From an uncultured Candidatus Saccharibacteria bacterium (GTDB lineage Bacteria > Patescibacteriota > Minisyncoccia > Phycocordibacterales > UBA918), in contig CAZBMV010000001.1 in the NCBI GenBank assembly GCA_964493145.1, positions 54,623 through 118,622 on the forward strand: a stretch of 64,000 bases of DNA. The letters are read 5' to 3'. Positions 28,761 through 59,910 of the stretch are shown here, one piece after another. A model generated the notes under the pieces. It worked only from the letters and a program-made list of their open reading frames with translations. It searched no databases and was not told where the DNA came from. Made by a program: the position numbers and the translations under genes. Numbering within the stretch: position 1 is the stretch's first letter; each line of letters opens with the position of its first letter.

Positions 28761-28805
28761 ACCATGCTCTTGTGGTCAATTTAAAATTTCTAGATATACG
28801 TCATC

Positions 28806-28835
28806 AAAAACCATTCGTTTAAACGAATGGTTTTT
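28806..28835. terminator. intrinsic terminator AAAAACCATTCG-TTTAAA-CGAATGGTTTTT
   Basis: Seen directly. Confidence 0.6.
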
Positions 28836-40079: not shown

Positions 40080-40108
40080 AAATTTAGAAATACAAAAACC
40101 AACACTTT

Positions 40109-40142
40109 TATATTATAATTCCCCATGGGGAATTATAATATA
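40109..40142. repeat. perfect 34-bp palindrome TATATTATAATTCCCCATGGGGAATTATAATATA (copy 1; dyad extends to 40105-40146)
   Basis: Exact copies at 40758-40791 and 53597-53630, each with its own extra dyad-symmetric flanks. Confidence 0.8.
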
Positions 40143-40154
40143 AAAGTGTAATGT

Positions 40155-40724
40155 ATGGAGAAAAAGGAAAAAAAGAATGAGAGAATAAAACTGGGACCAA
40201 TTGGTGAAGCAATACTCGGAGTGGTTGCGGTTACAGGCATGGTTACTGTTTTTGCGGTATTCCCTGGTGTGACAACAGTTATCGCCCCCTTTTTAAAAAA
40301 GAAAAAATACTCACCAAAGCAAGCGATTGAAAGAAATATTAACTCACTCATCAAAAAAGGAGTTCTCAAAAAAGTAACTGACTCATCAGGAAACGAAAAA
40401 CTTGAACTCACAAAACGAGGACGATGGGAGGCCGCTCTCCGGTTTACTTCTCAAGATAGAAAGCAAACAAAATGGGATGGAGTTTGGAGAGTGGTGATAT
40501 TTGACGTACCACAATCAAAAGCAAAAGAACGAGGAGAACTTCGCAGGGCAATGCGTTTTTTCGGATTCAAACTTCTTCAAAAAAGCGTGTGGGTATATCC
40601 TTTTGCATGTGATGACTTCATTACACTTCTCAAAGATCATTTCGGTGTCTCGCGCGATGTTCTCTATATGAAAGTGTCACACATTGAAAACGACAAGCAT
40701 CTTAGGAGAGAGTTTGGTTTGTAA
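40155..40724 (+). CDS. membrane-anchored PaaX-family-like regulator (TM helix + wHTH-like + PaaX_C-like domain)
   Basis: TM helix IGEAILGVVAVTGMVTVFAVF; LIKKGVLKKVTDSSGNEKLELTKRG resembles the PaaX wHTH wing; TKWDGVWRVVIFDVPQSKAKERGELRRAMRFFGFKLLQKSVWVYP resembles the PaaX WDGxW...GFG core. Bracketed by the 34-bp palindromes. Confidence 0.45.
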   Translation: MEKKEKKNERIKLGPIGEAILGVVAVTGMVTVFAVFPGVTTVIAPFLKKKKYSPKQAIERNINSLIKKGVLKKVTDSSGNEKLELTKRGRWEAALRFTSQDRKQTKWDGVWRVVIFDVPQSKAKERGELRRAMRFFGFKLLQKSVWVYPFACDDFITLLKDHFGVSRDVLYMKVSHIENDKHLRREFGL

Positions 40725-40757
40725 ATAAGCCAGCGCAACTTATTTTGTAACACAACT

Positions 40758-40791
40758 TATATTATAATTCCCCATGGGGAATTATAATATA
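40758..40791. repeat. perfect 34-bp palindrome, copy 2 (dyad extends to 40751-40798)
   Basis: CACAACTTA-[core]-TAAGTTGTG. Confidence 0.8.
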
Positions 40792-40844
40792 AGTTGTGTT
40801 CAACGGGAGCATTGGAACAATAGGTATGATTGTTTGAAAACAAG

Positions 40845-43733: not shown

Positions 43734-43794
43734 GCTACAGACATTCTCTGCTTAACTAATAAACAAAAGAGAGTTATTCCCAGGGTAGTCCTCA

Positions 43795-44490: not shown

Positions 44491-44495
44491 AGTGT

Positions 44496-46292: not shown

Positions 46293-46297
46293 AGGTG

Positions 46298-46918
46298 TTA
46301 CCGTTGCGGTGCTTGTGAAAGGTCCTCGGGATTAAAAATGTGGTAGTACAGTTCGGTGAGTTCGTCTGTTCCCAGAGGCGCGGTACGGATGCCGATGCGC
46401 GCGAGCCCCTGCTCCACGACAGACACGCGCTGTTCCAACTGCATGCGGTCTTCAAAAAATTTATCTGAGACACCTCCCCCCTTTTTTGTTTTCGGCTTAA
46501 GGAATTTCCCTATACCCTCAACCTCAAGCGACGCTGACCTATACGGCACAATGACAAAGAAATTCTTTGTCATAATTTCCACTTCGCTCGTAAAGGTGGT
46601 AATGAACTCCATGTACTCTCGCAACTGAATGCGCATGAGGTCGTTGTCTTGATGCGATTCTCTCTCTTTGAGGATTTCTAGGTACGGCCGTATATCAAGA
46701 CGTCGCGACTGAGCGTATATTTGGAGAGAAAAGTCCACCGCATTAAGAAATGCCTGAAATTGAGAGAGAATCGCCTGCTGTTCTTCGGATGCTTTGAGCG
46801 CAAAGTTTATGGAAGAGGCGAGGAGCACCATACACATTTGCCCATCTTTAAGAATGACGACATCATCGTGAATGTCTGCAATGGGAACAAATTGTTGCGT
46901 TGCGTTTTGTGTTGTCAT
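46298..46918 (-). CDS. T4SS-associated protein resembling the extreme N-terminus of Gram-positive VirB4 (possible split VirB4 N-fragment)
   Basis: VPIADIHDDVVILKDGQMCMVLLASSINFALKASEEQ resembles the DG.I.KDG...L.V..INF.L.S.EEQ start of TraE/TcpF-type VirB4. Stops 5 nt before the VirB4 start. Confidence 0.4.
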   Translation of the reverse strand: MTTQNATQQFVPIADIHDDVVILKDGQMCMVLLASSINFALKASEEQQAILSQFQAFLNAVDFSLQIYAQSRRLDIRPYLEILKERESHQDNDLMRIQLREYMEFITTFTSEVEIMTKNFFVIVPYRSASLEVEGIGKFLKPKTKKGGGVSDKFFEDRMQLEQRVSVVEQGLARIGIRTAPLGTDELTELYYHIFNPEDLSQAPQR

Positions 46919-46920
46919 AA

Positions 46921-47322
46921 TTAACGTTCGGTTTGATTGAGCTCAAGTTTTTTAGTCAGCGCCGAAATGGAATTTTGGTGAACGGAAGAAAGATCTGATG
47001 TTTGCTGGGCTTCTTCCCCGTAGCCGTTTGTCACCGTCTGTGAGGATTCGCGTTTCCAAAGGTACAGTTTATTCTTTGTCGTATACCGCGCCGCTGACTC
47101 AAGGAAGAGTGAGAACGGGCGATTGTTGACGCGGTGAAATGCGAGCGAAAAAGAGAGGGCGGCAATCGGGAGGCCAAAGAGAATCGCCAAAATAAAAGGA
47201 GCGCTCAAAAAAAGAATGACGAGGATGCCCACTCCACCGGCGAGGTACACGAACTGGCGCCACGTAAGGGGGCCAATAACCTTGTCTTCAATCTCAATGA
47301 ATTGAGGAACCTCAAAGCGCAT
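46921..47322 (-). CDS. PrgI/VirB3-like small membrane protein
   Basis: MRFEVPQFIEIEDKVIGPLTWRQFVYLAGGVGILVILFL...; hydrophobic hairpin, positioned before VirB4 as in Gram-positive T4SS. Confidence 0.45.
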   Translation of the reverse strand: MRFEVPQFIEIEDKVIGPLTWRQFVYLAGGVGILVILFLSAPFILAILFGLPIAALSFSLAFHRVNNRPFSLFLESAARYTTKNKLYLWKRESSQTVTNGYGEEAQQTSDLSSVHQNSISALTKKLELNQTER

Positions 47323-47378
47323 ATATCAGTATTGTACCTTATCCGCACGCCCGCTCCCCCACGGGCGTGCGGATAAAA

Positions 47379-47930
47379 CTACTCACCCGCCCTTTTCCCC
47401 TCCTCGTATGCTTCGTACCCTCGTACGGGAGAGGAGGCACCGGACTCGTCTTTGATAGACGCAATATCTTTTTGCATGGTGCGTGTTGGCGCAATTGCCC
47501 TAAGCACCTCTTCGCGTGTGAGCGGACGCGGGCTATTCTCGTTTGTACCACTCGCGTTCTCAATTCCTTCGGGACGGAGCTCAAGTTTTTCACGAGTGTC
47601 TTTATTTGCACTCGGTAACACAACTGTTTCAGCAGTAGCATTCAGCGAATTAAAAAAGACACCAATAGTTTTTTCAATTTCAGGTATATGCGCAGAATCA
47701 ATTCCCAAAGCAGAAAGTTCATTTTTAAAATCTTCAGGCGACTTAAAACCAAGAATTGTATCGCCAATTAAGTCAATGAAAGCAAGTCTTTTTTGCTCAT
47801 CAAAATTATTTTTTGTTACCAATACACCAATAACTTCTCCTAGCTCTAGGCTACCGTATAGATTTTTTACCGGCACACTAGCATTTCGGTATGCAAGAAG
47901 CCTTTTTTCAGAGGTGATAGTGTCGTTCAT
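47379..47930 (-). CDS. hypothetical protein of the T4SS-like cluster
   Basis: 183 aa, no motif; stop abuts the start of the upstream gene. Confidence 0.35.
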   Translation of the reverse strand: MNDTITSEKRLLAYRNASVPVKNLYGSLELGEVIGVLVTKNNFDEQKRLAFIDLIGDTILGFKSPEDFKNELSALGIDSAHIPEIEKTIGVFFNSLNATAETVVLPSANKDTREKLELRPEGIENASGTNENSPRPLTREEVLRAIAPTRTMQKDIASIKDESGASSPVRGYEAYEEGKRAGE

Positions 47931-47931
47931 A

Positions 47932-50199
47932 TTAGAATCTTGAACCTGCCGGAGTACTAAAGAAATTATTAAATGCGTTATTCCCGTGGATCATTTGAAC
48001 ATTTCGTTTAATGTTCGCTCTCGCCGTGTCGTCAATTGAATCATTATCAAGTATTTTTGTGAGTACATTTGCGTTTAGATGCTGCGCTGCTTTAACATCA
48101 GTAAGAATTTGAACAGGAAGATTTGCTCTCTCAGAATCATTACGAATTCTTCCAAACAAACGTGTTGCTGAAGCGGGGGTTGAAACACCTGCGGGCGCAA
48201 ATTCTGTAATAAGTGAAGTGTTTCGGGCATTTTTGAGAACAGATTTTTCGCTGGGGGTGAGGTTCTTCATGTCGTGGATCTGTTTTGATGTCAAGTGACC
48301 GGCATGTTGGACAAGTGTGTTGAAGTCCATTGCATCAAGATCACTTGCATCTGCTTTGCTAATATTCCCAGCATTTCCTCCTGCGCCTCCCGATACCCCA
48401 TGTTTATTTTGAACGTGAATTGAGCGAGCAGAGCGTAATTTCGCTTTCTTCTCATCGTCAAGGTCTTCAGACTTTGCTTTCATTAAGGATTCAAACTGAG
48501 AAGAAGACATATTTTCCACGAGAGCATTATATTCGGGAGTTCCCTCTTTATGTTTTTCAAGAAGTTTCAAAAGTTGTTCATTTGAAGCGTTTGTGATGGA
48601 ACGTTCCATGTCAATTCTTTGTTGGCTTCCAGTAGGTGCCGAATGACCTGCGGCAATATTGGCACCAATATTACTGACTTGGGCACTTTGTGCCCTAGCT
48701 CTCTTAATTTCTTTTGTTTCATCTTTTTTGTCCTTGAATGTTTTACTGCCACCGTAATTACTTTTCGCCGCTTTTGTTGCAACTGCGTTTATTCCAGTGG
48801 CACGCATAGCTAGGGCACCAATTTGCGCGCCTCTAGTATTGCTTTTGCGTAATGAATCCTGTTTGTCGGCGACCCACTGACCAGCACGACCAATCGTGTT
48901 GCGTCCCATCCACCCGGTAGCACCTTTACGAAGATTATCACCGGCGCCAATCATCATTCCCGCACCCTCAACCCCAAGCTTCTTTGCCACGAGTAGAGAT
49001 TGGATGAGGAAGAAAATGATGACGGAAAAGTTTAGGAACATGTAGTATGAATCCGCCTGTTCCCCATTGGTCATCGCTTTCATGAAACTTCCACCTGAAC
49101 CAATAAGGTTGAGCCCACCAATGAGTGTGAGTGAAATGAGTGTGAGAAAAAGGTAAATTGGTGCGAAAAAAGCTTGTGCAAGCAGTTTTCCCCAAAGTGA
49201 GGACGCCATGCTTGCCGTTTTTGGGAAAATAGTTGCGGCAAAAAGAATCGGTGAGGCAACCATAATGAGAATGAGAATCACAAACCGAATCACGAGCAGT
49301 ACCGCAGCAGCGAAGAACACAAATGCCGCAATGAAGAGAACTAATGCGCCGAGAACGTAGAACCAAACCATGCCAGCTTTTGTTACGTTGTTGAAAGTGT
49401 TCGGGTCAGGTGCTTTGAAAATGGTTGTAATTCCAAGACGATCAGCAACAGCAGCGGAAATGGTACCCCCCCCGTCTGTCATGGAGGTATAAATTTGGTA
49501 TGAAGTATAGTTTCCGAAATCAACAACAAATTTCACAATGAAGAGACTGAAGTTGATGAGGAGCGCACCGATGATGATGCGTGAGAGTGTTTGCTTTATA
49601 AAGTGACTATCCGGGTCAATAATGGCTCTGATGCCGAGGTAGATGAATCCGAAAATAAAAGCCAGGTTTGCAAAGTCACGAACGAGTTTCCACGCGTTAT
49701 CTATCGCCAAACCAAATGATTGTGTATTGACCATGTCGCCCATACCAAAAACAAATTTTTGGAGTGCAGCATCAAGAAGCGTCCCTCCTACCCACGTAAA
49801 CGCGGACGCCATTGTGAGAATGAGGTTACCGATGTACTGACCAACTTGTGACCAAAAACCACCGTCCTCTTTTTTCTTGTCTTTCGCTGTAGCAGCTTGG
49901 TTTTTTGCTTCCGCTTCTCTCCGCACCTCTTCTTGCCACTGTTGGTTGAGGGCGTCGTTTTCAGCCTGTCTTTCATCATAAGTCTGTGTATCGTTTTGAT
50001 CTGCGATAGCGCCAAGATCTACATTTGAGGTATCAACCCCTTGAGTATTGCCGCGCGTATAGTCAACAGCAGTAGGATCAGCGTCTTGAGCAAAACCAAC
50101 ACGCACCATTCCAAAAAAAGAAAAGAGGAAAAGAAGTGCAATCGCCAAAAGGGTTGTTCTCTCCCCGAGCGTATTTTTTTGTTGATGCAGAGAAGTCAT
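47932..50199 (-). CDS. VirB6/TrbL-like polytopic membrane protein with long hydrophilic C-terminal extension
   Basis: Signal-like N-terminus (MTSLHQQKNTLGERTTLLAIALLFLFSFFGMV), ~8 TM helices, then a ~330-aa polar tail. The ORF-track start (50400) overlaps the upstream gene by 200 nt and is trimmed. Confidence 0.45.
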   Translation of the reverse strand: MTSLHQQKNTLGERTTLLAIALLFLFSFFGMVRVGFAQDADPTAVDYTRGNTQGVDTSNVDLGAIADQNDTQTYDERQAENDALNQQWQEEVRREAEAKNQAATAKDKKKEDGGFWSQVGQYIGNLILTMASAFTWVGGTLLDAALQKFVFGMGDMVNTQSFGLAIDNAWKLVRDFANLAFIFGFIYLGIRAIIDPDSHFIKQTLSRIIIGALLINFSLFIVKFVVDFGNYTSYQIYTSMTDGGGTISAAVADRLGITTIFKAPDPNTFNNVTKAGMVWFYVLGALVLFIAAFVFFAAAVLLVIRFVILILIMVASPILFAATIFPKTASMASSLWGKLLAQAFFAPIYLFLTLISLTLIGGLNLIGSGGSFMKAMTNGEQADSYYMFLNFSVIIFFLIQSLLVAKKLGVEGAGMMIGAGDNLRKGATGWMGRNTIGRAGQWVADKQDSLRKSNTRGAQIGALAMRATGINAVATKAAKSNYGGSKTFKDKKDETKEIKRARAQSAQVSNIGANIAAGHSAPTGSQQRIDMERSITNASNEQLLKLLEKHKEGTPEYNALVENMSSSQFESLMKAKSEDLDDEKKAKLRSARSIHVQNKHGVSGGAGGNAGNISKADASDLDAMDFNTLVQHAGHLTSKQIHDMKNLTPSEKSVLKNARNTSLITEFAPAGVSTPASATRLFGRIRNDSERANLPVQILTDVKAAQHLNANVLTKILDNDSIDDTARANIKRNVQMIHGNNAFNNFFSTPAGSRF

Positions 50200-50200
50200 A

Positions 50201-51706
50201 TTAGAAATTTGTCTCCTGACATGCGTTATCAATGGAACCGGTGAAGGACGAAATTTCGGTTTGCAAGTTCGGAATGGTTTGCAATTCAACGGACACGAGT
50301 TGTGGAGCGGAATGCAAATTATTTCCGTCGCGGAACGCCATAAATCGTTCCATAATACGTGATTGTGCTGCGGGGATTGATGTTGCATTGTACTTTTCAA
50401 GGAGTGAGTTTATCGTCGCACCGGGAGTTGATGAATTTTCCAGTGCAGAGTAATCGGCGAGCCAGACGTTAAGTGTTGCAATAACTGTTTGCGCTGAAGC
50501 AATCGCAGTTTGCGCTGAGCTCAGTTGACTTTGGAGCGACGAGGTGAGGTTGCCGGGGGTACAGACCTCGTACACCTCATTTCCGCTATCGTCGGTTGTT
50601 GTCGCTCCGGGGTACACTCGTTCTCGGTACGTTGAGGCATCAGTGATGAGATTGACAATTTGTTGCTGAAGACCGAGGTAGCGTTCCTCATTTGTTATGG
50701 CGGTTCTCAGTGCGGAGTTTGCACCCTCAGAAGCACCGGTAACATCGGTTGAATCTTGCATTGGCTCATCACGCATTCGGTCAAAGTAATCTCCGGAAGA
50801 ACCGTTCCCCGGTTCGGTGAGACCGAGGAGCCCACCGACACCACCTAACGCTTCACCTACGAGTTGTGCAAAGAGAGCTCCGACGAGCTCATTGATCTCA
50901 TCCGCGGCAGCAATTCGTTGGTTCGTAAGACCCAGAGCACTGTTTAATTGGTCTTCAATAACAGAACCGGGAGTGATAATGTTTCCATAATCGTCTTCCC
51001 TGGAGAGAAATCCCTTACCAAACTCAAGAAGTTTAATTTCTTGCCCCTGCGCATTGCTGATGCTTGCGTACATTGCCGTGTTTGCCTCAAGGTATGCACT
51101 GTATGGGTTGTTCCCCGGCATGAGTGCCATTTCGTACCACCCATCCCAGCCACCCGCGAGGAAGTTTCCGTTCATAAAACTTTCCATATTGCTCACGACG
51201 CCACTCAGCGTACATTGCGCTTGGTAGTTGCGACGTTGGTTGTACTGCATCTGGAGTGCAAGTTGAACGTTAAGCTTAAACGGCGAACAGAGAAACTTGA
51301 GCGGTGAACCCCAAATGAAATCACCCGCTACTCTGTCAGCGATATTCATGAGGAATCCCTCAAGGTCGGTCACAAAGGCGGGGCTCCCCTGAAAGCCCGA
51401 GTTCACCCACTTGGTCGTACTCTTGATCATTTGTTGAATAGTGAGGTTGACGAGTTGCCACGCGATTTTATCAAGGACATACTCCTTTGTCGCCAGACTT
51501 TGAATGGAGGCGGACGTTATGGCATCAAACGCCGCGGAGATTGCACTTTGCACCCACGCGCCTATTTCTCCGACGATATTATCATCAAACGAGTGCGCCT
51601 TTTGAACCGTTAACGACTGCGAGACCGGAGCAAAAACAAAACTTGAAACAAGAACAAAGGAGGTGGCGATGAGGGTTACTTTTTTAAGAAATGAAGGCGA
51701 CATCAT
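50201..51706 (-). CDS. secreted hypothetical protein (501 aa)
   Basis: Signal peptide; Gly/Ser/Asn-rich; no motif. Confidence 0.4.
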   Translation of the reverse strand: MMSPSFLKKVTLIATSFVLVSSFVFAPVSQSLTVQKAHSFDDNIVGEIGAWVQSAISAAFDAITSASIQSLATKEYVLDKIAWQLVNLTIQQMIKSTTKWVNSGFQGSPAFVTDLEGFLMNIADRVAGDFIWGSPLKFLCSPFKLNVQLALQMQYNQRRNYQAQCTLSGVVSNMESFMNGNFLAGGWDGWYEMALMPGNNPYSAYLEANTAMYASISNAQGQEIKLLEFGKGFLSREDDYGNIITPGSVIEDQLNSALGLTNQRIAAADEINELVGALFAQLVGEALGGVGGLLGLTEPGNGSSGDYFDRMRDEPMQDSTDVTGASEGANSALRTAITNEERYLGLQQQIVNLITDASTYRERVYPGATTTDDSGNEVYEVCTPGNLTSSLQSQLSSAQTAIASAQTVIATLNVWLADYSALENSSTPGATINSLLEKYNATSIPAAQSRIMERFMAFRDGNNLHSAPQLVSVELQTIPNLQTEISSFTGSIDNACQETNF

Positions 51707-52575
51707 ATGTCAAAAAGATAAAAGAACGCGCCGAGTTCGTCGTTTGCATAGGTAATACCGTTTTCACCGAGAGCTTCGCCCATAGCCTTGAAGGAATTTG
51801 CCATAGCGGTTACATCATCATAGTACTTTCGTACGCGCGCGAGGGCGTAGAGTGGGTCATCAAACGCCTTTTCCATTGCTTCTATGTCGGTGAGAATTGC
51901 TTCGTACGCATTGAGGAGCGCGAGGTGTTCATTGACGAACGAATCCGGCACGCTCATTTTAAGCATGTCATTAATCATGCCGACGTACGCCTCGCGTATG
52001 GGTGCGAGTTTTGCGAGCACGGCGGGGTCGTTCGTATCAAGCGCTTGTTTTAAAATTGTCACCTCATTCACCCCTCCCGTTTGATACTTCACGACGATTT
52101 CCGGTATGCGATTTCCATACTCGCGCATCGCTTCAAAGGTCGCAGGAACGATGGTGAGTTCAAGACGAGAGCGACGTTTGCTCTGTGTGTTTTCTTCAAT
52201 GGCGGTGACGGCATTCCCGACGAGCAGAGACGGGTCGCTGAAATCTTGACCGTTTATTTTCCCCTGAAGGTAGTCTTGAAAAAATGCTTCAGAAAATTTT
52301 CCCGTGAAGGTGGTTGGTTCCTCGTACGGTTCCGCACCCTCTGCTTCATTGTTTGGCGCGGGTGGCGTTATTGCTTTGATACCAAGACTTTCCTCCCAAT
52401 CTTTAATGCCATCATTGTCCGAGTCGGTCGCTTCAATATACGTTCGTTCGGGTGCCACCGCGACGACGACTTGTGCTTCCTGTGGTTGTGCCGTCGTCGC
52501 ATTCACGTGCAAAGCGCCAAGGATGATGACGATCCCCATTGCGACTGCTCCTCCTATACGAATACTCCCTTTCAC
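51703..52575 (-). CDS. secreted/anchored hypothetical protein, first gene of the T4SS-like cluster
   Basis: N-terminal TM/signal and a DSDNDGIKDWEE (calcium-binding-like) segment. Confidence 0.4.
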   Translation of the reverse strand: MKGSIRIGGAVAMGIVIILGALHVNATTAQPQEAQVVVAVAPERTYIEATDSDNDGIKDWEESLGIKAITPPAPNNEAEGAEPYEEPTTFTGKFSEAFFQDYLQGKINGQDFSDPSLLVGNAVTAIEENTQSKRRSRLELTIVPATFEAMREYGNRIPEIVVKYQTGGVNEVTILKQALDTNDPAVLAKLAPIREAYVGMINDMLKMSVPDSFVNEHLALLNAYEAILTDIEAMEKAFDDPLYALARVRKYYDDVTAMANSFKAMGEALGENGITYANDELGAFFYLFDI

Positions 52576-52649: not shown

Positions 52650-53531
52650 TTAACTCTGTGGAGAGAGAGGTTGATTTTGATGTGTGTAGAGTTTGTGCGC
52701 GAGCGCGAGCCACTTCTCAAGAGGAACGTCTTCCCCGCGGACGTCTTCCCTAAGGCCGAGTGTGGAAAAAGTGGGGGTAAGAACATCGCGCGCAACCATA
52801 CCGGAAAGATTTCCAATGAGTTGCTTCCGCCTTGACTTGAACCCACAGTGGAGCACCGAGAAGAAAAATTCCTGAAAAGAAGGTGTCTCCCCCGCATTCC
52901 CTAGGGTTCCCCTAGGGAATGCGGGGGGAGACAGGCGGTCTTTTGAAATGTGCTGAACTGCGAGAATGGCCGAATCAATCTTTGGAGGAGGCATGAAATT
53001 GCCTTTTGTGACGGTTTTTACGTACCGTGGTTCACCAAAAACCTTTACAGAGAGCGACAAAACCGACTCCTTCTCGCTTCGTGCAATGCGCTCGGCGACC
53101 TCTTTTTGTACAAGAAAAACGAGAGTTAATGGGGGTATGTCATGCTCAAGAAAATGGCGAAAAAGAAAGCCGGAAATGTAGTAGGGGATGTTTGCTATGA
53201 GTTTGTAGGCACTCGGCCGAAGGCCGAGTGCCCCGAGGTCAACATTCCGTACATCATCATGCACAATAACAAGCTTTTTAGCCGTAATTTCCTCCTCAAA
53301 GGTTTTTTGAAGTGCTTCAACGGCACGTATGTCTGCCTCTATGGCGACAACATTTGCCCCACGAATGAGAAGTTCACGAGTGAGCATGCCGGTCCCGGGG
53401 CCTACCTCAAGCACTACATCACCCCTTTTTACCTCTCCCGCTTCCGCCATTGCCTCTGAAATACGGGGATTTTTGAGAAAATGCTGCCCCAAAGACTTTT
53501 TTGCATCAATCTTTCCTATCCTTTTTTTCAT
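52650..53531 (-). CDS. ksgA: 16S rRNA (adenine1518/1519-N6)-dimethyltransferase
   Basis: LGQHFL, VLEVGPGTGMLT (motif I), NIPYYIS; contains a 46-nt palindromic in-frame segment (see repeat at 52885). Confidence 0.85.
   Translation of the reverse strand: MKKRIGKIDAKKSLGQHFLKNPRISEAMAEAGEVKRGDVVLEVGPGTGMLTRELLIRGANVVAIEADIRAVEALQKTFEEEITAKKLVIVHDDVRNVDLGALGLRPSAYKLIANIPYYISGFLFRHFLEHDIPPLTLVFLVQKEVAERIARSEKESVLSLSVKVFGEPRYVKTVTKGNFMPPPKIDSAILAVQHISKDRLSPPAFPRGTLGNAGETPSFQEFFFSVLHCGFKSRRKQLIGNLSGMVARDVLTPTFSTLGLREDVRGEDVPLEKWLALAHKLYTHQNQPLSPQS
52885..52930. repeat. 21-bp inverted repeat with 3-nt spacer embedded in-frame in ksgA (TCTCCCCCGCATTCCCTAGGG-TTC-CCCTAGGGAATGCGGGGGGAGA)
   Basis: Seen directly; encodes the PAFPRGTLGNAGETPS segment of KsgA. 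Confidence 0.7.
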
Positions 53532-53585
53532 AAAGACAGTATAGGTGTAGGGATATCAAACTGCAAAACATAAACGTAAGCTCAC

Positions 53586-53639
53586 TTCCGCCGCTTATAT
53601 TATAATTCCCCATGGGGAATTATAATATAAGCGGCGGAA
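53586..53639. repeat. 54-nt perfect palindrome containing the third copy of the 34-bp core; abuts the pcrA stop, ~50 nt upstream of the ksgA start
   Basis: TTCCGCCGCTTA-[34-bp core]-TAAGCGGCGGAA. Confidence 0.8.
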
Positions 53640-53640
53640 A

Positions 53641-55593
53641 CTAATCCAAGTACACCGTCCGTTCATAGCCGGATTCGCTCGGGTTTGTACTCTCAAGGAG
53701 TTCTTCGCGGATGTCGCGCAAAAAAGAAGACGGGGCGTTGACGCGTTGGCTTCCAAAAATAGTACGCATGTGCGCGTAGGAGAGAAAAACCTTTTTTTGC
53801 GCGCGCGTGAGCGCAACGTAAAAGAGGCGGCGCTCCTCTTCTTCATCAACACCCTCGTCACTCAAGCGCTCGTGTGGGAAGAGACCATCTTCAAGTCCGG
53901 TGATGAATACGTACGGGAACTCAAGACCTTTGGATGCGTGGATGGTCATGAGACGTACCGCGTCCAGTTCGTCCTTGTCTTTGAGTTCATCCTGGTCGCT
54001 CCCGAGTGCGGAATCTTCAAGGAGGTGCTCTATCGCTTCTTCGGGTTCATACTCGCAATACTTCGTTCCGAGGGAGACGAGTTCGCGTACGTTTTCAAGA
54101 CGTTCAAGCCCCTCTTCTCCATTCTGTCGATACTCCCCCTCCATCCCCGTTCGTTTCATGATGAACGCGAGCGTCTCGTGGACGGGATGACCTTTCGCGT
54201 ACGTCGCGATTTCATCTATGAGTGCATAAAACGCGTCAACTTTCTCACGCGTTTTTGCAGGAAGATCATCGCGCTTCCCCTCCACCACCTTGAGAACGGT
54301 TACCTTGCCTATGCCCCGCGGAGGTGTGTTGATGATACGTACCAGGTCCCCCGTTCCTTCCGGGTTGAGCGCAAAGCGCAGGAACGCGAGAACATCCTTC
54401 ACCTCCTTCCGTTCAAAAAACTTCGTGCCGAGCATTTGGTACGGCACATCGTAGTTGATGAAGGCTTCCTCAAGCGCACGCGACTGAAAGTTGGTACGGA
54501 AGAGAACGGCGATGTGCGAAGGAGACACCCCTTTTTTTATGAGGTCCTTTGCGGTCATGGCAACGTACTCCGCCTCCTCCTGTCCTCCCATCGCGGCGTA
54601 AAGCGAAATGAGTTCCCCGGGGTGATTTTTTGTAAACACTTTTTTCAGAGGGCGGTTCACATTCTTTCCGATGATGTCATTGGACGCCGCAATGATGGTT
54701 TGCGTGGAGCGGTAGTTTTCCTCCAGCATGATTATTTTTGCCTGTGGAAAGTGACGTTCAAATTGCAAAATATTTTTGATGTCAGCACCCCTCCACGAGT
54801 AAATGTTTTGATCCACGTCACCAACGACGCAGAGGTTTGCGCGCTCTCCCACAATGAGCCGTGCAATTTCATACTGGACACGGTTCGTGTCTTGGTACTC
54901 GTCTATGTGGACGTACGTAAAGCGATCGCGGTACTCGGCAACAATTTCGGGGTGACTCTTGAGCATGGAAAGCGTCTTTGCGAGGAGGTCATCAAAATCA
55001 AGTGCGTGTTCGTCTTTGAGAATCGTGTCGTAGTGCGCCCACACTTCCGCCGCCACACGCTCAGGGTACGTGCGGCTTTCTCCCGCGAAGTCGCTACGTG
55101 TCTGTGCGTCTCCCTTCGCGCGTGAAATAATGGAAAGAATTTTACGCGGTTCAAACTGTTTTGGGTCGTGCCCCGCGCGCTCCATCGCCTTTTTTATCGC
55201 ACCTATGGAGTCACTGCGATCGTATATGGCGAACTGCTTTTTGAGTCCGAACACCCCATGGTGCTCTCTGAGCATACGAACGCCGAGAGAGTGGAAGGTA
55301 GTCACGAGGGGGACACCGCCATCGGTACTGCGTGCGCTCCCGTGAAACACCTCTATAAGGTGCATGACACGTTCGCGCATTTCTTTTGCCGCTTTGTTGG
55401 TAAAGGTGACGGCGAGAATTCGCTCAGGTGGTATACCGCTCAGTATGAGGTGGATGATGCGGTGCGTGATGACTCTCGTTTTCCCTGAGCCGGCACCCGC
55501 GAGCACGAGAAGCGGACCCTCGGTTGTCATCACCGCATTTTTTTGTGCCTCGTTGAGACCTTCAAGGTGTTTTTTGGAAAAAGTGTCGTCCAT
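53641..55593 (-). CDS. pcrA: UvrD/PcrA/Rep-family ATP-dependent DNA helicase
   Basis: Motif I GAGSGKTRVITHRI, Ia, II (DEYQDTN), and VGDVDQNIYSWRGA. Confidence 0.9.
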   Translation of the reverse strand: MDDTFSKKHLEGLNEAQKNAVMTTEGPLLVLAGAGSGKTRVITHRIIHLILSGIPPERILAVTFTNKAAKEMRERVMHLIEVFHGSARSTDGGVPLVTTFHSLGVRMLREHHGVFGLKKQFAIYDRSDSIGAIKKAMERAGHDPKQFEPRKILSIISRAKGDAQTRSDFAGESRTYPERVAAEVWAHYDTILKDEHALDFDDLLAKTLSMLKSHPEIVAEYRDRFTYVHIDEYQDTNRVQYEIARLIVGERANLCVVGDVDQNIYSWRGADIKNILQFERHFPQAKIIMLEENYRSTQTIIAASNDIIGKNVNRPLKKVFTKNHPGELISLYAAMGGQEEAEYVAMTAKDLIKKGVSPSHIAVLFRTNFQSRALEEAFINYDVPYQMLGTKFFERKEVKDVLAFLRFALNPEGTGDLVRIINTPPRGIGKVTVLKVVEGKRDDLPAKTREKVDAFYALIDEIATYAKGHPVHETLAFIMKRTGMEGEYRQNGEEGLERLENVRELVSLGTKYCEYEPEEAIEHLLEDSALGSDQDELKDKDELDAVRLMTIHASKGLEFPYVFITGLEDGLFPHERLSDEGVDEEEERRLFYVALTRAQKKVFLSYAHMRTIFGSQRVNAPSSFLRDIREELLESTNPSESGYERTVYLD

Positions 55594-57073: not shown

Positions 57074-57712
57074 CTATTTTTTGTTCTGAATAAAAAACAG
57101 TGCGGTGGCGGTTACGGCACCGAGCGTATCGGCGAGCATGTCTTTCTGCGCGTCCCACATGTCGCCTTGACTTCCGAGGTACGCCGCGCCAAGTTCAGGT
57201 GCGGCGTTTGCGGCATACAGCCACTCTATGAGTTCGTATCCCATCGCGATTGTCGCAATGGTGAAAATGGGATAGGTAAAGAGGAGAAAACGATTCGCAA
57301 CAAGTTTCTTTACAGAGAGCCACTCGGCAATCGCGTACGCATAGAACCCAACCGAAAAGTGCGCAATCCGGTCAAAGTGGTTTCGCTCAAAATCAAAGAG
57401 GTCGGTAACAAAGCCGAAGGGAACCTGTGCAAACGTCCAGTGCCCGCCGATGGTGTGGAGGTAGATGAGCACAAACATGAGCCCGTACGCCGCCTTTGAA
57501 AACGTCACACCGCGCGCATAGAGAATCAAAATAATTCCGACGATGATCCACACCGTAAGATTTTCAACAAACCACGTCGCGCGGTCGGTGGGGTGGAATG
57601 CGAGAACGGTAAAGAGAATAGAATAAATGATAAGCAGTGTTCGTAAAAAAGTATGTTGAAGCATGCTTGTAGTATATAACGCCGCCAGCCACTTTTTATA
57701 ATAAAACCGCAA
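57074..57712 (-). CDS. polytopic membrane protein (YjdF/DUF2238-like)
   Basis: 212 aa, 6 TM helices; tentative family. Confidence 0.4.
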   Translation of the reverse strand: MRFYYKKWLAALYTTSMLQHTFLRTLLIIYSILFTVLAFHPTDRATWFVENLTVWIIVGIILILYARGVTFSKAAYGLMFVLIYLHTIGGHWTFAQVPFGFVTDLFDFERNHFDRIAHFSVGFYAYAIAEWLSVKKLVANRFLLFTYPIFTIATIAMGYELIEWLYAANAAPELGAAYLGSQGDMWDAQKDMLADTLGAVTATALFFIQNKK

Positions 57713-57779
57713 GCCATTCGGGCTTTTTCTTTTTCAACGGTCAGTACTTTCTCTCCCAAAAAATTAGGAAAATCACATT

Positions 57780-57813
57780 TATACCATAACGCGCATATGC
57801 GCGTTATGGTATA
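57780..57813. promoter_or_regulatory. perfect 34-bp palindrome TATACCATAACGCGCAT|ATGCGCGTTATGGTATA between the TrmB-like regulator gene and the membrane-protein gene; candidate operator
   Basis: Seen directly; 8 nt after the regulator stop and ~70 nt before the downstream start. Confidence 0.45.
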
Positions 57814-57821
57814 AACGGTGG

Positions 57822-58610
57822 TTACGGGAGTTTGATATGTTTTGGTTTCTCAAATTCCCCGCGAGTCCGTTCCCAGAGTATCTCAAAGATGTCTTTCATT
57901 GCGCGGGCGAGCTTTTCACTTTCAATAATGAGTGCTTGCTTTGAACCTGGGATAACAATGCGGACTCCCCATTCAAACATCTCAAACGAAGTATCTGCCG
58001 CATAGAGATTTGTTGGGAGAAAGCGTGCAACTATGCCACCGTCACCGGTGAGAAATTTTTCATACGATGCAAGCGAGGCGTCATCAGGAGTAAAGGCACG
58101 TACCGCGATGTTGTGTTTTTGCTTATATTCATTCCACGGTAAAAAAACAGATTTCTCAAGTTCAACATCAACATCGGTTGCACGTGCAAAAAACCCGACG
58201 ATTTCTTTCCCGTGAAATTCTTTGAGGCGGTAGTCGTATGCCTGCTTGAGACCATCAGTTCCCTCAAAGTAGAGGATATTCGGCTTTTCACTGGTTTTTC
58301 GTTGAAGCGCCATGAGTTCCGGAAGTGCGCGCTTCACCGAGCGGAGTTTCTGTTCGGCGTCCTCAACATACGCTTCCGGTGATCGTGCCATGTATAGTTT
58401 ATTTTTCTCTCCGGTCACCTGTATGATGAGTCCTTTCTCAACAAGTTCCTCTGCGATGACGTAGGCGGTCGGCCGCTTGAGCCGCGCACGCTTGGCGATT
58501 TTATAAGGAGTTGATGGACCAAGTTCAAGGAGCGCGAGGTACACACGTGCCGCTTTATCACTCAAGTTTAGATTCTTCAGTTGTTCAACGAGATCTTCCA
58601 TATAGCGCAC
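57822..58610 (-). CDS. TrmB-family transcriptional regulator
   Basis: N-terminal wHTH LSDKAARVYLALLELGPSTPYKIAKRARLKRPTAYVIAEELVEKGLI plus TrmB-like C-domain. Confidence 0.7.
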   Translation of the reverse strand: MRYMEDLVEQLKNLNLSDKAARVYLALLELGPSTPYKIAKRARLKRPTAYVIAEELVEKGLIIQVTGEKNKLYMARSPEAYVEDAEQKLRSVKRALPELMALQRKTSEKPNILYFEGTDGLKQAYDYRLKEFHGKEIVGFFARATDVDVELEKSVFLPWNEYKQKHNIAVRAFTPDDASLASYEKFLTGDGGIVARFLPTNLYAADTSFEMFEWGVRIVIPGSKQALIIESEKLARAMKDIFEILWERTRGEFEKPKHIKLP

Positions 58611-58728
58611 ATGGTACTACAGAGTAATATTATAGTCAATAAAATTGACAAATACAAACTAAAGCACAAATTATCCTTATGATAAAACAAAAAATAAAGA
58701 AAGCAGATAAAATAGATAGTCAGATATA

Positions 58729-58757
58729 TTGACGAGAATGATACCGTGTGGTAGTAT
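58729..58757 (+). promoter_or_regulatory. sigma70-like promoter TTGACG-N17-TAGTAT
   Basis: Near-consensus -35 and -10 with 17-nt spacer, ~90 nt upstream of the small ORF whose RBS is AAGGAGAG. Confidence 0.5.
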
Positions 58758-58844
58758 ATACGCAGATGATACGGAAGTATCAAGAACTTTGAATCCGCGA
58801 AATTCTTCGCACCGCACCTCGGGCACTGGGGTAAGGAGAGACAA

Positions 58845-59105
58845 ATGGATATCTACTTGGTAAGGAATACATACGGATGGGATGGCGCCGAGATGTGGGG
58901 GCGAACTGTCGGCGATGTGGCACACGGACCTGTTGGTGTGTTTTTCACCCCAGAACTTGCCGCAGATGCCTGCATCGCCATGAGAATGAAATTCGTTTTC
59001 TCCGGCGATTGGTCATATCCCGAAATCCGTCCTGAATGGAAAGATTGGTTTGACGACAAATACCATAATGTTTACATAGAAAAATGGAACATTATGGGTT
59101 CGTAA
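58845..59105 (+). CDS. hypothetical small protein (86 aa)
   Basis: Strong SD (TAAGGAGAG) 6 nt before the ATG, with the promoter upstream. Confidence 0.55.
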   Translation: MDIYLVRNTYGWDGAEMWGRTVGDVAHGPVGVFFTPELAADACIAMRMKFVFSGDWSYPEIRPEWKDWFDDKYHNVYIEKWNIMGS

Positions 59106-59378
59106 TCAATCTTTCCACGCAGACCCCAGTCTGACTGCGTGTAATAAATGAATGGGACGCTCGTAGAGAATACAAGTACGAGCATGGTGGGGCATAAAAG
59201 ACCGAACCCCTTCCAAAAGCTTTTCCGGTAGATACGCTTAGACTACCCGTTCGCCCTTACGTGAAAGTGGTCTGGCGAGTTGAGTGAATTCACCTCCTCG
59301 CCATCTTTATACAGTTTTTAAGGAAACTTGAAAACTTTTAGAGATTTGTTCCTTCAAAATCAACCTGAGGAGACGAAC

Positions 59379-59651
59379 ATGAGTGAACAGCAACCGAGAA
59401 TGAGCGTTTCGGGAACCATTGTTGAGGTTCTCAACGAGGGGCTTGCCACCTTCAAGGTGAAGACGAAACTGGGTTTCGCATTCGTCTGGGTGTGGGAGGA
59501 AGTTGAAGTGAACTTCCGCGTCGGTTCGGCCTTTGAGGTCACCGATGCGCCGGTCACATTTGACGGCGGCTACCCCATAGCGACAATCAAGCCCGGTACC
59601 ATGTTCTTCCTCAACGGAACGAGGTACGAGACACATGACCCCGAGGCCTAA
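59379..59651 (+). CDS. hypothetical small protein (90 aa)
   Basis: SD GAGGAG 6 nt upstream of ATG (MSEQQPRM...); beta-rich. Confidence 0.5.
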   Translation: MSEQQPRMSVSGTIVEVLNEGLATFKVKTKLGFAFVWVWEEVEVNFRVGSAFEVTDAPVTFDGGYPIATIKPGTMFFLNGTRYETHDPEA

Positions 59652-59910
59652 CATGGAGCAGGTTCCGAGGCGACCTGAACAAAACGTCTCAAACAACACG
59701 CCCGAATGGTGGAATCACTTTCACCCTTCGGGCTTTTTCTTTTTGGGCACGTATACCATAAGTTCCGATCGGAACTTATGGTATAAATATTTTTTGTGGA
59801 ATCTTAAGTGCAAACCGTTACACGTCCCGCGTATCCTACGCACACCCGTATGTCTATTGACGGTAATATATAAATTTGCTACACTTTATATACAGTAAAT
59901 TCATATATTT

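What the first reader, a model, noticed from the sequence alone, without database searches (positions are those of the whole stretch)
53586..53639. 54-nt perfect palindrome (third copy of the 34-bp core) fused to the pcrA stop codon and upstream of ksgA
- A 54-nt perfect dyad is far beyond chance expectation.
- It starts 1 nt after the helicase stop and ends ~50 nt before the ksgA start.
- It shares the 34-bp core with the two copies flanking the PaaX-like gene but has the longest private extension (GC-rich CCGCCGC arms).
- It has no U-tract, so it is not a canonical terminator.
- Candidate roles: a stable mRNA 3' stabiliser or processing site, a DNA cruciform, or a target or footprint of a hairpin-recognising transposase or recombinase.
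Basis: seen in the sequence. Interest (0 to 1): 0.55.

Follow-up and report, generated by a model that had tools for sequence, protein, structure and literature searches.

The report
Regulator-linked perfect palindrome after pcrA
The 54-base perfect palindrome is real and is a stray third copy of a 34-base mirror-symmetric DNA site that, in hundreds of tiny uncultured bacteria (Patescibacteria), sits on both sides of the gene for a small PaaX-like DNA-binding protein, so it is most likely that protein's docking site, here lodged in the hairpin slot that ends the helicase gene.

Summary
Window 53586-53639 is a perfect 27+27 nt palindrome. It starts 1 nt after the TAG of a UvrD/PcrA-type helicase and ends 54 nt before the KsgA start. 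It shares a 36-bp core, not 34, with two copies flanking a PaaX_M gene.

The functional unit is a 34-bp frame, TATAyyATAA-N14-TTATrrTATA. The window holds five of these in register.

Orthologues of the PaaX_M gene sit in conserved rnpA-yidC synteny. They are flanked by the same frame with a genome-specific centre. The upstream copy ends 8-12 nt before the ATG.

Across 82 Patescibacteria loci, long palindromes are about 10-fold enriched next to PaaX_M genes (p~1e-25). C at position -3 from the dyad is nearly invariant (93 of 96 half-sites).

The protein model best matches E. coli PaaX and winged-helix repressors.

Best reading: this is a dispersed copy of the regulator's cognate dyad site. It occupies the pcrA 3' hairpin slot, where relatives carry unrelated hairpins or a canonical terminator. 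Its perfect symmetry and private GC-rich arms look like template-switch symmetrisation.

No binding was tested. The effect on pcrA and ksgA is inferred. No transposase link was found. The protein-palindrome cassette appears undescribed in the paper library searched.

The parts
53586..53639 (.). The finding: a 54-nt perfect palindrome with no spacer, between the helicase stop codon and ksgA
   Evidence: Expected by chance 3.6e-12. As RNA it forms a hairpin of about 24-27 bp; a 111-nt context folds at -50.9 kcal/mol, z = -7.35.
53596..53629 (.). 34-bp dyad frame TATATTATAA-N14-TTATAATATA, proposed to be the protein-binding unit
   Evidence: The pattern TATANNRTAA-N(12-20)-TTAYNNTATA hits exactly five sites in the window, all 34 bp long; 0 are expected. 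The five align in register. The same frame occurs in orthologous loci L090, L004, L005, L006 and L007.
53586..53594 (.). Private left extension TTCCGCCGC, complementary to 53631-53639. It is not shared with the other copies.
   Evidence: Private palindromic extensions of 1-10 nt are also seen at sites in L004, L007 and window copies 1 and 2.
53631..53639 (.). Private right extension GCGGCGGAA. It ends 1 nt before the helicase stop codon.
40102..40149 (.). Copy 1: a 48-nt perfect palindrome with the same 36-bp core. It lies 22 nt after the yidC stop, and its frame ends 12 nt before the PaaX_M ATG.
40749..40800 (.). Copy 2: a 52-nt perfect palindrome with the same core, between the convergent 3' ends of the PaaX_M gene and a 382-aa gene
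40155..40724 (+). Gene for the proposed cognate protein (189 aa). It has an uncharged hydrophobic N-terminal segment, a winged-helix region and a Cas2-like PaaX_M domain.
   Evidence: Pfam PaaX_M 4.3e-18. AF2 model with pLDDT 83. Best PDB match is E. coli PaaX 8a39, followed by MecI/BlaI, PadR and MarR. Kyte-Doolittle maximum 2.24 over residues 19-37. It is the only family member in the window.
57780..57813 (.). Site 4: the same 34-bp frame in its CC variant, TATACCATAA CGCGCAT|ATGCGCG TTATGGTATA. It lies 8 nt after the stop of a TrmB-like gene and upstream of a DUF2238 gene.
59752..59785 (.). Site 5: the same frame in its CC variant, with inner 7-mer GTTCCGA. It lies 126 nt upstream of a DUF4143/AAA_14 gene.
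53641..55593 (-). UvrD/PcrA-type helicase gene. Its transcript would carry the palindrome as a 3' hairpin.
52650..53531 (-). KsgA/RsmA (RrnaAD) gene downstream of the palindrome
53538..53567 (-). ksgA's own promoter-like site, TTTGCA-18-TATACT, ending 6 nt before the ATG (leaderless-type geometry). The palindrome lies upstream of it.
   Evidence: TATACT also lies 6-8 nt before the ksgA ATG in L085 and L089. The window as a whole shows a peak of -10-like hexamers 6-9 nt before ATGs.

Best explanation
The 54-nt palindrome has two layers: a 34-bp dyad site (53596-53629) wrapped in a private palindromic extension.

The 34-bp site is a dispersed, lineage-specific copy of the cognate DNA site of the PaaX_M-family protein encoded at 40155-40724. 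That protein has a winged-helix region and a Cas2-like dimerisation domain, and is probably membrane-associated. Its own gene is flanked by two identical copies of the site.

Inferred mechanism:
- A dimer of the protein binds duplex DNA on the frame TATAyyATAA-N14-TTATrrTATA. A family-wide contact falls at C(-3)/G(+3) around the dyad.
- At its own gene, the outer TATA of the upstream site doubles as the -10 box of a short-leader promoter, which gives autorepression.
- The copy at 53586-53639 sits in the slot just after the helicase stop codon, where relatives carry an ordinary terminator-type hairpin. Once transcribed, it forms a very stable 3' hairpin for the pcrA mRNA.
- Bound protein could add a roadblock that insulates the leaderless ksgA promoter 20-70 nt downstream.

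The perfect symmetry, the spread of symmetry into private flanks and the identity of the copies are best explained by intrastrand template switching and gene conversion acting on a long zero-spacer dyad, not by selection on each base.

What is shown: the sequence facts, the protein-site association, the conserved geometry and the symmetrisation signature.
What is inferred: protein binding, autorepression, termination or roadblock, and membrane anchoring.
For: (1) Association with the gene. In the five closest orthologous loci fetched (L090 71%, L004 67%, L005 61%, L006 59%, L007 53% identity), the gene keeps its rpmH/rnpA-yidC synteny where the flanks were read (L004, L090). It is flanked by the same 34-bp frame with a genome-specific inner 7-mer.

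(2) Generality. In 82 loci from different Patescibacteria, 34 of 96 perfect palindromes fall in the 3.4% of DNA within 250 bp of the PaaX_M gene ends (p = 1.6e-25). Near-perfect palindromes scoring 13 or more occur upstream in 26% of loci and downstream in 33%, against 2.6% of random 320-nt windows. Upstream and downstream copies match each other within a genome and differ between genomes.

(3) Motif rather than mere hairpin:
- C at -3 in 93 of 96 half-sites (1.77 bits), A at -1 in 66 of 96, and an A/T-rich block at -8 to -12.
- The L005 upstream site keeps the outer half-sites although 3 of 7 inner positions do not pair.
- Site length is fixed at 34 bp in the orthologue group.

(4) The protein looks like a DNA-binding repressor. 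It has a PaaX_M domain. The AF2 model has pLDDT 83. Its best PDB match is E. coli PaaX, followed by winged-helix repressors. E. coli PaaX is autoregulated and binds a long dyad, TGATTC-N27-GAATCA (PMC9493321).

(5) Promoter overlap. The upstream site ends 8-12 nt before the ATG in the window, L090, L004, L005 and L007. This genome shows a peak of -10-like hexamers 6-9 nt before start codons.

(6) Terminator slot. The orthologous pcrA-ksgA junctions carry unrelated hairpins (L085, L087) or a canonical bidirectional terminator (L089). The window has no other terminator at this junction. The RNA folds at -50.9 kcal/mol.

(7) Symmetrisation. Within-genome site pairs show 15 positions where both arms changed together, against 25 one-arm differences; about 0.1 co-changes would be expected from independent hits, by my own estimate. 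The central dinucleotide is inverted (GT/AC) between copies in L042 and L049. Arm homogenisation, extension of arm identity and spacer inversion are the published outcomes of template switching (PMC8604942, PMC3820800).
Against: - No binding experiment or protein-DNA model was made.
- The conserved outer TATA..TAA could reflect promoter (-10) function alone.
- Downstream copies often lie between convergent gene ends (15 of 27 loci). A promoter operator is not expected there, so the both-sides arrangement is not explained by simple autoregulation.
- The three window copies are identical over 36 bp, including inner bases that differ in sites 4 and 5. That is more like copying than independent operator evolution.
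- Centre-motif classes did not sort cleanly with coarse protein clusters.
- The winged helix may be incomplete if the hydrophobic N-terminal helices are in the membrane.
- The site centre lies about 81 bp upstream of the predicted ksgA start, which is a poor position for repression.
- No U-tract follows the hairpin, so termination is not assured.
Confidence: 0.6

Rival explanations
1. It is only an RNA hairpin. The palindrome is a U-tract-less terminator, 3'-exonuclease block or RNase III processing site of the pcrA-ksgA transcript. Its resemblance to the PaaX_M-flanking copies reflects copying of a convenient stable hairpin, with no protein partner.
For: - It starts 1 nt after the stop codon.
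- The same slot holds hairpins or a canonical terminator in three relatives.
- The RNA is very stable.
- Copies 1 and 2 and site 4 also lie just after stop codons.
- Compensated arm changes fit selection for pairing.
Against: - It does not explain the 10-fold enrichment next to PaaX_M genes across 82 loci.
- It does not explain the invariant C at -3, a position in or next to the loop of a zero-spacer hairpin.
- It does not explain the fixed 34-bp frame, or sites that keep the motif while losing pairing (L005 upstream, L040).
- The ordinary terminators of this genome have 3-5 nt loops and A/T tracts. This class has a 0 or 2 nt centre and no T run.
- In L004 a canonical terminator follows the downstream palindrome, so the palindrome is not needed for termination there.
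Confidence: 0.15
2. It is part of a mobile or recombining cassette. The PaaX_M gene with its two palindromes is a self-contained element. The Cas2-like protein cuts or recombines at the C-N4-G centre, and solo palindromes such as 53586-53639 are targets, footprints or non-autonomous copies inserted at the tips of pre-existing hairpins.
For: - The cassette layout (palindrome, one gene, palindrome; centres about 610-800 bp apart) holds whatever the neighbour's orientation.
- Several paralogues occur per genome.
- The three copies are 36/36 identical, while orthologous sites in other genomes have diverged.
- Each window copy sits exactly at the centre of a private outer palindrome, as expected for insertion at a hairpin tip.
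- C(-3)/G(+3) is invariant and 6 bp apart, like the cut positions of some recombinases and resolvases (the comparison is from my own knowledge).
- An Asp in the first strand of the Cas2-like domain is invariant (D117).
- An unrelated palindrome is inserted in frame inside ksgA.
Against: - The orthologous gene stays at the same yidC-proximal position in genomes only 53-71% identical in this protein, with diverged palindromes. That indicates long residence, not movement.
- There are no exact copies of the core in 185,579 species genomes, the JGI metagenomes (only chance-like hits) or viral contigs.
- No target-site duplication is evident.
- No transposase or recombinase was seen in the ORFs scanned.
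- The private outer palindromes are also produced by template switching.
- PaaX_M domains are not known nucleases.
Confidence: 0.12
3. It is a portable bidirectional promoter. The frame is two back-to-back -10 boxes (TATAAT, or the extended TGGTATAA in the CC variant), and copy 3 simply adds a second promoter for ksgA.
For: - Each arm carries an outward-facing TATAAT, TATAAA or TGnTATA box.
- Upstream copies lie 8-12 nt before the PaaX_M ATG in five genomes.
- Leaderless-type promoter geometry is common in this genome.
Against: - Paralogue families have no TATA motif in their flanking palindromes (centres CTATAG, CGATCG or CGRYCG).
- Copy 2 and many downstream sites lie between convergent 3' ends.
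- ksgA already has its own conserved promoter.
- A promoter does not need a palindromic GC-rich centre or the invariant C at -3.
Confidence: 0.08

Closest known systems
PaaX repressor and its operators (E. coli and Pseudomonas phenylacetate catabolon)
   Same: - The protein shares the winged-helix plus Cas2-like PaaX_M architecture. E. coli PaaX (8a39) is the best structural match.
- PaaX represses its own promoter.
- PaaX recognises a long dyad with outer half-sites, TGATTC-N27-GAATCA (PMC9493321).
   Different: - There is no C-terminal effector (phenylacetyl-CoA) domain, and no paa genes were seen among the neighbours examined.
- The protein scores 25.7 bits against the 264.55-bit cut-off of the PaaX equivalog model.
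- It has a hydrophobic N-terminal segment.
- The sites are 34 bp, perfectly symmetric through the centre, present on both sides of the gene, and carry a different motif.
BlaI/MecI, PadR and MarR-type winged-helix repressors with palindromic operators overlapping their own promoters
   Same: - The fold matches in the winged-helix part.
- The operator overlaps the -10 region of the regulator's own gene, an autoregulatory layout inferred here.
   Different: - The dimerisation domain is Cas2-like.
- The operators are much longer, perfect and flanked by private palindromic arms.
- A second copy lies downstream of the gene.
Rho-independent (intrinsic) terminators, including the bidirectional ones of this genome
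   Same: It is a stable hairpin directly after a stop codon, in a slot that holds a canonical terminator in relative L089.
   Different: It has no T/U tract, no loop (zero spacer) and an AT-rich stem of about 25 bp, and its sequence is shared with sites elsewhere.
REP/BIME elements with RAYT transposases, IS200/IS605 hairpin ends, and Rickettsia palindromic elements
   Same: They are short repeated palindromes in intergenic DNA at gene ends. In this window another palindrome is inserted in frame in a gene, as RPEs are.
   Different: - Only three identical copies occur in 64 kb.
- No HUH/Y1 transposase was seen.
- The copies are tied to a winged-helix gene rather than to a transposase.
- The symmetry is perfect, whereas REP hairpins are imperfect.
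Protelomerase (telRL) and tyrosine-recombinase core sites (loxP, dif)
   Same: They are long dyads, perfect in telRL and 34 bp in loxP, with a conserved pair of positions 6 bp apart around the centre. This comparison is from my own knowledge, set.
   Different: No recombinase or protelomerase gene is associated. The sites lie inside a chromosome, flanking a regulator gene. Nothing here shows cleavage.

Membership tests
Cognate dyad sites of PaaX_M-family proteins in Patescibacteria (a class defined here) | Even-length dyad of about 34-40 bp with a 0 or 2 nt centre, and C at -3 / G at +3 | tested here: met
   The centre at 53612|53613 reads CCA|TGG, so C is at -3. The family-wide matrix has C in 93 of 96 half-sites.
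Cognate dyad sites of PaaX_M-family proteins in Patescibacteria (a class defined here) | Same sequence as the sites that flank the genome's own PaaX_M gene | tested here: met
   It is 36/36 identical to 40108-40143 and 40757-40792.
Cognate dyad sites of PaaX_M-family proteins in Patescibacteria (a class defined here) | Orthologue-group frame TATAyyRTAA-N14-TTAYrrTATA | tested here: met
Cognate dyad sites of PaaX_M-family proteins in Patescibacteria (a class defined here) | Physically bound by the protein | not testable with these tools
   This needs EMSA, DAP-seq or footprinting, or a protein-DNA complex prediction.
PaaX regulon (true PaaX orthologue plus operator) | Regulator passes the PaaX equivalog model and has the C-terminal effector domain | tested here: not met
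   TIGR02277 scores 25.7 bits against a cut-off of 264.55. The protein is 189 aa and ends after the PaaX_M domain.
PaaX regulon (true PaaX orthologue plus operator) | Operator TGATTC-N27-GAATCA | tested here: not met
   The motif here is TATAyyATAA-N14-TTATrrTATA.
Intrinsic terminator | GC-rich stem, 3-8 nt loop, and a run of T within 0-2 nt after the stem | tested here: not met
   The scan of 53300-53900 does not call it. The stem is followed by GTGAGCTTACG on the transcribed strand.
REP/RAYT or IS200/IS605-type hairpin elements | Many dispersed copies plus a Y1/HUH transposase gene in the genome | tested here: inconclusive
   There are three copies in 64 kb. No such domain was found in the 24 ORFs scanned. 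The rest of the genome was not available.
MITE | Terminal inverted repeats plus a target-site duplication, with copies in many loci | tested here: not met
   No direct duplication flanks the 36-bp core; the flanks are inverted, not direct. No exact copies occur elsewhere.
Known RNA family (Rfam) | Match at or above the gathering score | tested here: not met
   Only miRNA-precursor noise at 25-31 bits, against thresholds of 70-119.
Protelomerase or tyrosine-recombinase target | Associated recombinase or resolvase gene, and evidence of cleavage or hairpin ends | not tested
   None was seen among the neighbours examined. No genome-wide search was possible.

The most novel reading that the evidence does not exclude
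The PaaX_M gene with its two flanking perfect palindromes may be a previously undescribed self-contained DNA module of Patescibacteria. In this reading the Cas2-like protein does more than repress. It acts on the palindromes at the invariant C-N4-G centre by nicking, recombining, inverting or excising them, or it tethers them to the membrane near the origin. Solo copies such as 53586-53639 would then be products or targets of that activity, placed at the tips of terminator hairpins. The evidence does not exclude this: the layout is cassette-like regardless of neighbours, the copies evolve in concert, each copy is centred in a private outer palindrome, the Asp in the first strand of the Cas2-like domain is invariant, and there are several paralogues per genome.
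Probability: 0.12. Interest if true: 0.85.

Novelty: new variant of a known kind. Interest (0 to 1): 0.55.

Why it matters
Patescibacteria (the candidate phyla radiation) have almost no experimentally characterised transcription factors.

This work links a very common small protein family to a recognisable class of DNA sites. More than 580 matches to this family were found among species-representative genomes, often several per genome. That link yields testable predictions:
- a binding motif, with C at -3, a 34-bp frame and a genome-specific centre;
- an autoregulatory promoter;
- a first candidate regulon in this genome: the regulator's own gene, the pcrA/ksgA junction, and sites next to a TrmB-like/DUF2238 pair and a DUF4143 ATPase.

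It also gives a clean natural example of long dyads kept perfectly symmetric and growing into their flanks, probably by template switching, in genomes with reduced repair.

If the protein turns out to act on the palindromes enzymatically, the module would be a new kind of DNA element built on a Cas2-like fold.

Tried and rejected
- Exact scan of the 24-mer core in 185,579 species genomes: 0 hits.
- Scan of the central 20-mer in JGI metagenomes: 3 loci. L001 is a coding-region coincidence. L002 and L003 are one proteobacterial 62-nt palindrome that shares only the central 22 nt; it has an unrelated context and is judged chance-level.
- Viral contigs: 0 hits.
- Looking up the window's own contig through exact proteins failed, so the rest of the genome could not be searched.
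- tblastn of PcrA and KsgA against the PaaX_M loci found nothing. The orthologous junctions had to be fetched through KsgA homologues.
- Rfam at a permissive E-value gave only hairpin noise.
- The terminator scan does not call the palindrome.
- Sorting centre motifs (CTATAG, CGATCG, CGRYCG) by coarse protein clusters gave no clean partition, so that covariation argument is not used.
- PADLOC and NCBIfam gave only sub-threshold Cas2 and PaaX hits, so no defence-system assignment is made.
- A sample of 24 window ORFs showed no transposase or recombinase.
- A parS/ParB-type centromere and a DNA-uptake-sequence receptor were considered and rejected. The motif is unrelated, and the DNA-binding part is predicted to be cytoplasmic because positive residues lie on both sides of the hydrophobic segment. 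That is an inference from the sequence.
- An integrative-element model (attL/attR plus an empty attB) was considered and rejected, because each copy's private flanks are complementary to each other rather than to another copy's flanks.
- An assembly artefact is unlikely. The palindromes are internal to contigs, and the L085 and L086 loci from two samples carry the same called genes across the region.
- Literature searches found no description of this protein-palindrome association in the held library.
Full report
1. The observation

Window 53586-53639 is a perfect palindrome of 27+27 nt with no spacer. From the window's base composition, about 3.6e-12 centres with 27 matched pairs are expected in 64 kb.

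Both neighbouring genes are on the minus strand:
- A 650-aa UvrD/PcrA-type helicase (53641-55593; UvrD-helicase 2e-84, UvrD_C 3e-71). Its TAG stop is separated from the palindrome by one base.
- A 293-aa RrnaAD/KsgA methyltransferase (52650-53531; 2e-38). Its ATG lies 54 nt past the other end.

Two more copies lie at 40102-40149 (48 nt) and 40749-40800 (52 nt). They sit on either side of a 189-aa gene with a PaaX_M (Cas2-like) domain at 40155-40724. The stretch identical in all three copies is 36 bp, not 34. Outside it, each copy has private arms that are again complementary to each other. No T run follows the stem, and the terminator scan does not call it.

2. The real unit is a 34-bp frame

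The pattern TATANNRTAA-N(12-20)-TTAYNNTATA hits five places in the window, where none is expected. All five hits are exactly 34 bp long:
- the three identical copies;
- 57780-57813, 8 nt after the stop of a TrmB-like regulator gene and upstream of a DUF2238 gene;
- 59752-59785, upstream of a DUF4143/AAA_14 gene.

The five align in register. Invariant positions are TATA..ATAA....C....G....TTAT..TATA. The inner seven bases per arm differ between the two subtypes but are palindromic in every site.

3. The link to the PaaX_M protein

The window lies in an origin region: dnaA, then rpmH, rnpA, yidC and the PaaX_M gene.

The closest orthologues fetched keep this arrangement, and every one is flanked by the same 34-bp frame:
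- L090 (71% identity) and L004 (67%) show the same synteny.
- L005, L006 and L007 (61-53%) carry the same flanking frame.

Each genome has its own inner 7-mer:
- window: TTCCCCA
- L090: GGGACGA
- L004: GCTCCAA
- L005: CGTACGG
- L006: TGTCCAC
- L007: GGGCCGT

The two copies within a genome share the inner 7-mer.

The family is large. All listed hits are Patescibacteria MAGs or unclassified bacteria apart from one labelled Bdellovibrionales, and several genomes appear more than once.

Across 82 loci:
- 34 of 96 perfect palindromes (arms of at least 13 nt, spacer of at most 2 nt) fall in the 3.4% of sequence within 250 bp of the gene ends. About 3.3 are expected (p = 1.6e-25).
- Allowing mismatches, 26% of upstream flanks and 33% of downstream flanks carry a palindrome scoring 13 or more. 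Only 2.6% of random 320-nt windows do.

More distant paralogues have other sequences but the same design. The sites are about 34-40 bp with a 0 or 2 nt centre. Upstream and downstream copies are alike within a genome (L034, L038, L042, L044, L049, L050, L062 and others). Solo copies lie kilobases away in L050, L062, L052 and L038.

4. A motif, not merely a hairpin

A position matrix over 96 half-sites from the gene-flanking palindromes shows:
- C at -3 from the dyad in 93 of 96 (1.77 bits);
- A at -1 in 66 of 96;
- an A/T-rich block at -8 to -12;
- little information elsewhere.

The centre is therefore C-N4-G (CTATAG, CGATCG, CGRYCG, and here CCATGG). In a zero-spacer hairpin these positions lie in or next to the loop, so pairing cannot be what conserves them.

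Some sites keep the motif while losing pairing. The L005 upstream site has perfect outer half-sites, yet 3 of its 7 inner positions do not pair. L040 is similar.

5. The protein

An AlphaFold2 model built on a 29-sequence alignment has mean pLDDT 83. Its best PDB match is the crystal structure of E. coli PaaX (8a39, E = 4e-5, 184 aligned columns). Next come MukE-type winged helices, Rv0674, MecI/BlaI, PadR, MarR and, further down, Cas2.

It is not a PaaX orthologue:
- It lacks the C-terminal effector domain.
- It scores far below the equivalog cut-off.
- Its Cas2 matches are sub-threshold.

Residues ~13-46 carry a single charged residue and reach a Kyte-Doolittle mean of 2.24, with Lys/Arg clusters on both sides. 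I infer a membrane-associated segment with the rest of the protein in the cytoplasm. This was not tested. Foldseek aligns part of that segment with the first helices of PaaX's winged helix, so whether the DNA-binding fold is complete is uncertain.

E. coli PaaX represses its own promoter and binds a long dyad, TGATTC-N27-GAATCA (PMC9493321). The general architecture is the same as here.

6. Promoter overlap at the regulator's own gene

The upstream site ends 12, 8, 10, 9 and 9 nt before the ATG in the window, L090, L004, L005 and L007 respectively. The terminal TATA plus two flanking bases therefore forms a -10-like hexamer (TATAAA, TATAAT, TATACT, TATATC, TATATT) lying 6-10 nt from the start codon.

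This genome uses that geometry. Strong -10-like hexamers peak 6-9 nt before ATGs, in 9 of 57 genes. ksgA itself has TTTGCA-18-TATACT ending 6 nt before its ATG, and the TATACT is conserved in L085 and L089.

Binding at the upstream site would therefore occlude the regulator's own -10 box. This is an inference.

7. What the third copy does where it sits

I fetched the orthologous helicase-ksgA junction from three relatives with conserved gene order: L085 (same contig as L004), L087 (same contig as L005) and L089. None has a site of this class, but all have a hairpin in that position:
- L085 has two unrelated perfect palindromes, the first directly after the stop codon and followed by the same AGCTTACG seen after the window palindrome.
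- L087 has a near-perfect palindrome.
- L089 has a canonical bidirectional terminator.

The slot after the helicase stop is thus a conserved hairpin/terminator position. In the window lineage it is filled by a copy of the regulator's site clamped by a GC-rich 9-bp outer stem.

As RNA the element folds at -50.9 kcal/mol within a 111-nt context (z = -7.35). No other terminator lies between the two genes.

My reading is that it ends or stabilises the pcrA transcript and, if bound, adds a roadblock ahead of the ksgA promoter. None of this is shown.

8. Why the palindromes are so perfect

I compared upstream and downstream sites within 16 genomes, over 17 positions per arm:
- 232 positions are the same in all four arms.
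- 25 positions differ in one arm only.
- 15 positions differ symmetrically, with both arms of a site changed together.

Independent hits at the observed one-arm rate would give about 0.1 symmetric changes, by my own estimate. The central dinucleotide is inverted (GT versus AC) between the two copies in L042 and L049.

Private palindromic extensions of 1-10 nt beyond the frame are common in the orthologue group.

Arm homogenisation, extension of arm identity and spacer inversion are the documented products of intrastrand template switching at inverted repeats (PMC8604942, PMC3820800, PMC7202029). I therefore treat the 54-nt length and the CCGCCGC arms as a mutational by-product. That by-product may have been retained because it stabilises the hairpin. 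It is not evidence of a 54-nt recognition site.

9. What does not fit simple autoregulation

- Downstream copies often sit between convergent 3' ends (15 of 27 loci, including the window and L004).
- The unit is always palindrome, single gene, palindrome.
- The three window copies are identical even at inner positions that vary in sites 4 and 5.

These features leave room for DNA looping between the two sites, for gene conversion, or for the more novel possibility that the protein acts on the sites.

Against mobility:
- The synteny is conserved.
- No exact copies of the core occur elsewhere.
- No target duplication is present.
- No transposase was seen among the scanned ORFs.

10. Verdict

The element belongs to a protein-linked class of dyad sites that I could not find described in the paper library searched. 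I file it as a new variant of a known kind: an autoregulated winged-helix repressor with palindromic operators.

Its unusual features are sites on both sides of the gene, perfect symmetry that expands into the flanks, concerted evolution of the copies, and a Cas2-like protein that is probably membrane-tethered.

Confidence:
- That it is a copy of the PaaX_M-associated site: high.
- That the protein binds it: moderate.
- Its effect on pcrA and ksgA: an inference.

Noticed in passing
window 52889-52927 (inside ksgA, 52650-53531, minus strand): A perfect 18-bp inverted repeat with a 3-nt loop (CCCCCGCATTCCCTAGGG ttc CCCTAGGGAATGCGGGGG) lies inside the ksgA coding sequence. The alignment with six homologues (61-75% identity) shows a 15-residue insertion (around SPPAFPRGTLGNAGE) found only in the window protein and encoded by this palindrome. 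It is an in-frame palindromic insertion, reminiscent of Rickettsia palindromic elements or of a template-switch event. It is unique in the window.
   Followed up: partly
window 57074-61053, against L085 4993-6491: The two CC-type sites (57780-57813, 59752-59785) lie in a segment between the conserved LysM/M23 peptidase and ComM-like Mg-chelatase genes, and the gene content of that segment differs from the relative. The window has DUF2238, a TrmB-like regulator, small ORFs and a DUF4143 ATPase. L085 has AHSA1, HxlR and a flavodoxin. The sites may mark or regulate an accessory island.
   Followed up: no
window 57716-57735 and 59727-59745: A direct repeat, TTCGGGCTTTTTCTTTTT, precedes both CC-type sites (about 45 nt before site 4 and 6 nt before site 5). 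It looks like the tail of a terminator and may be part of a larger repeated unit.
   Followed up: no
window, genome-wide feature (for example 53538-53543, TATACT 6 nt before the ksgA ATG): Strong -10-like hexamers peak 6-9 nt upstream of start codons, in 9 of 57 crude gene calls. This suggests frequent leaderless transcripts in this organism. The ksgA example is conserved in two relatives.
   Followed up: partly
L002 3075-3136 / L003 7284-7345: An unrelated, apparently proteobacterial contig carries a 62-nt perfect palindrome (GAAATAAGGGGACAGTTTACTTAATTCCCCATGGGGAATTAAGTAAACTGTCCCCTTATTTC). Its central 22 nt equal the centre of the window core. It lies between two co-directional genes. I judged it a coincidence, but it also has C at -3.
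   Followed up: partly
L085 9850-9874 and 9906-9937; window 28805-28836; L016 2788-2829; L007 6480-6521; L057 16530-16571: These genomes hold many other zero-spacer perfect palindromes of unique sequence in intergenic DNA, several with a C-N4-G centre (CATATG, CGTACG). Some may be solo sites of other PaaX_M paralogues, and some may be terminators perfected by template switching.
   Followed up: no
window 40845-52575 and L085 10912-20837, L087, L089: Between the PaaX_M gene and ksgA lies a conserved minus-strand cluster of type IV secretion-like genes (PrgI, TraC-like, TraG/VirB4-type ATPase, TrbL) plus unannotated proteins. It is syntenic in all relatives examined, and the regulator's downstream site abuts the 3' end of the cluster.
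   Followed up: no
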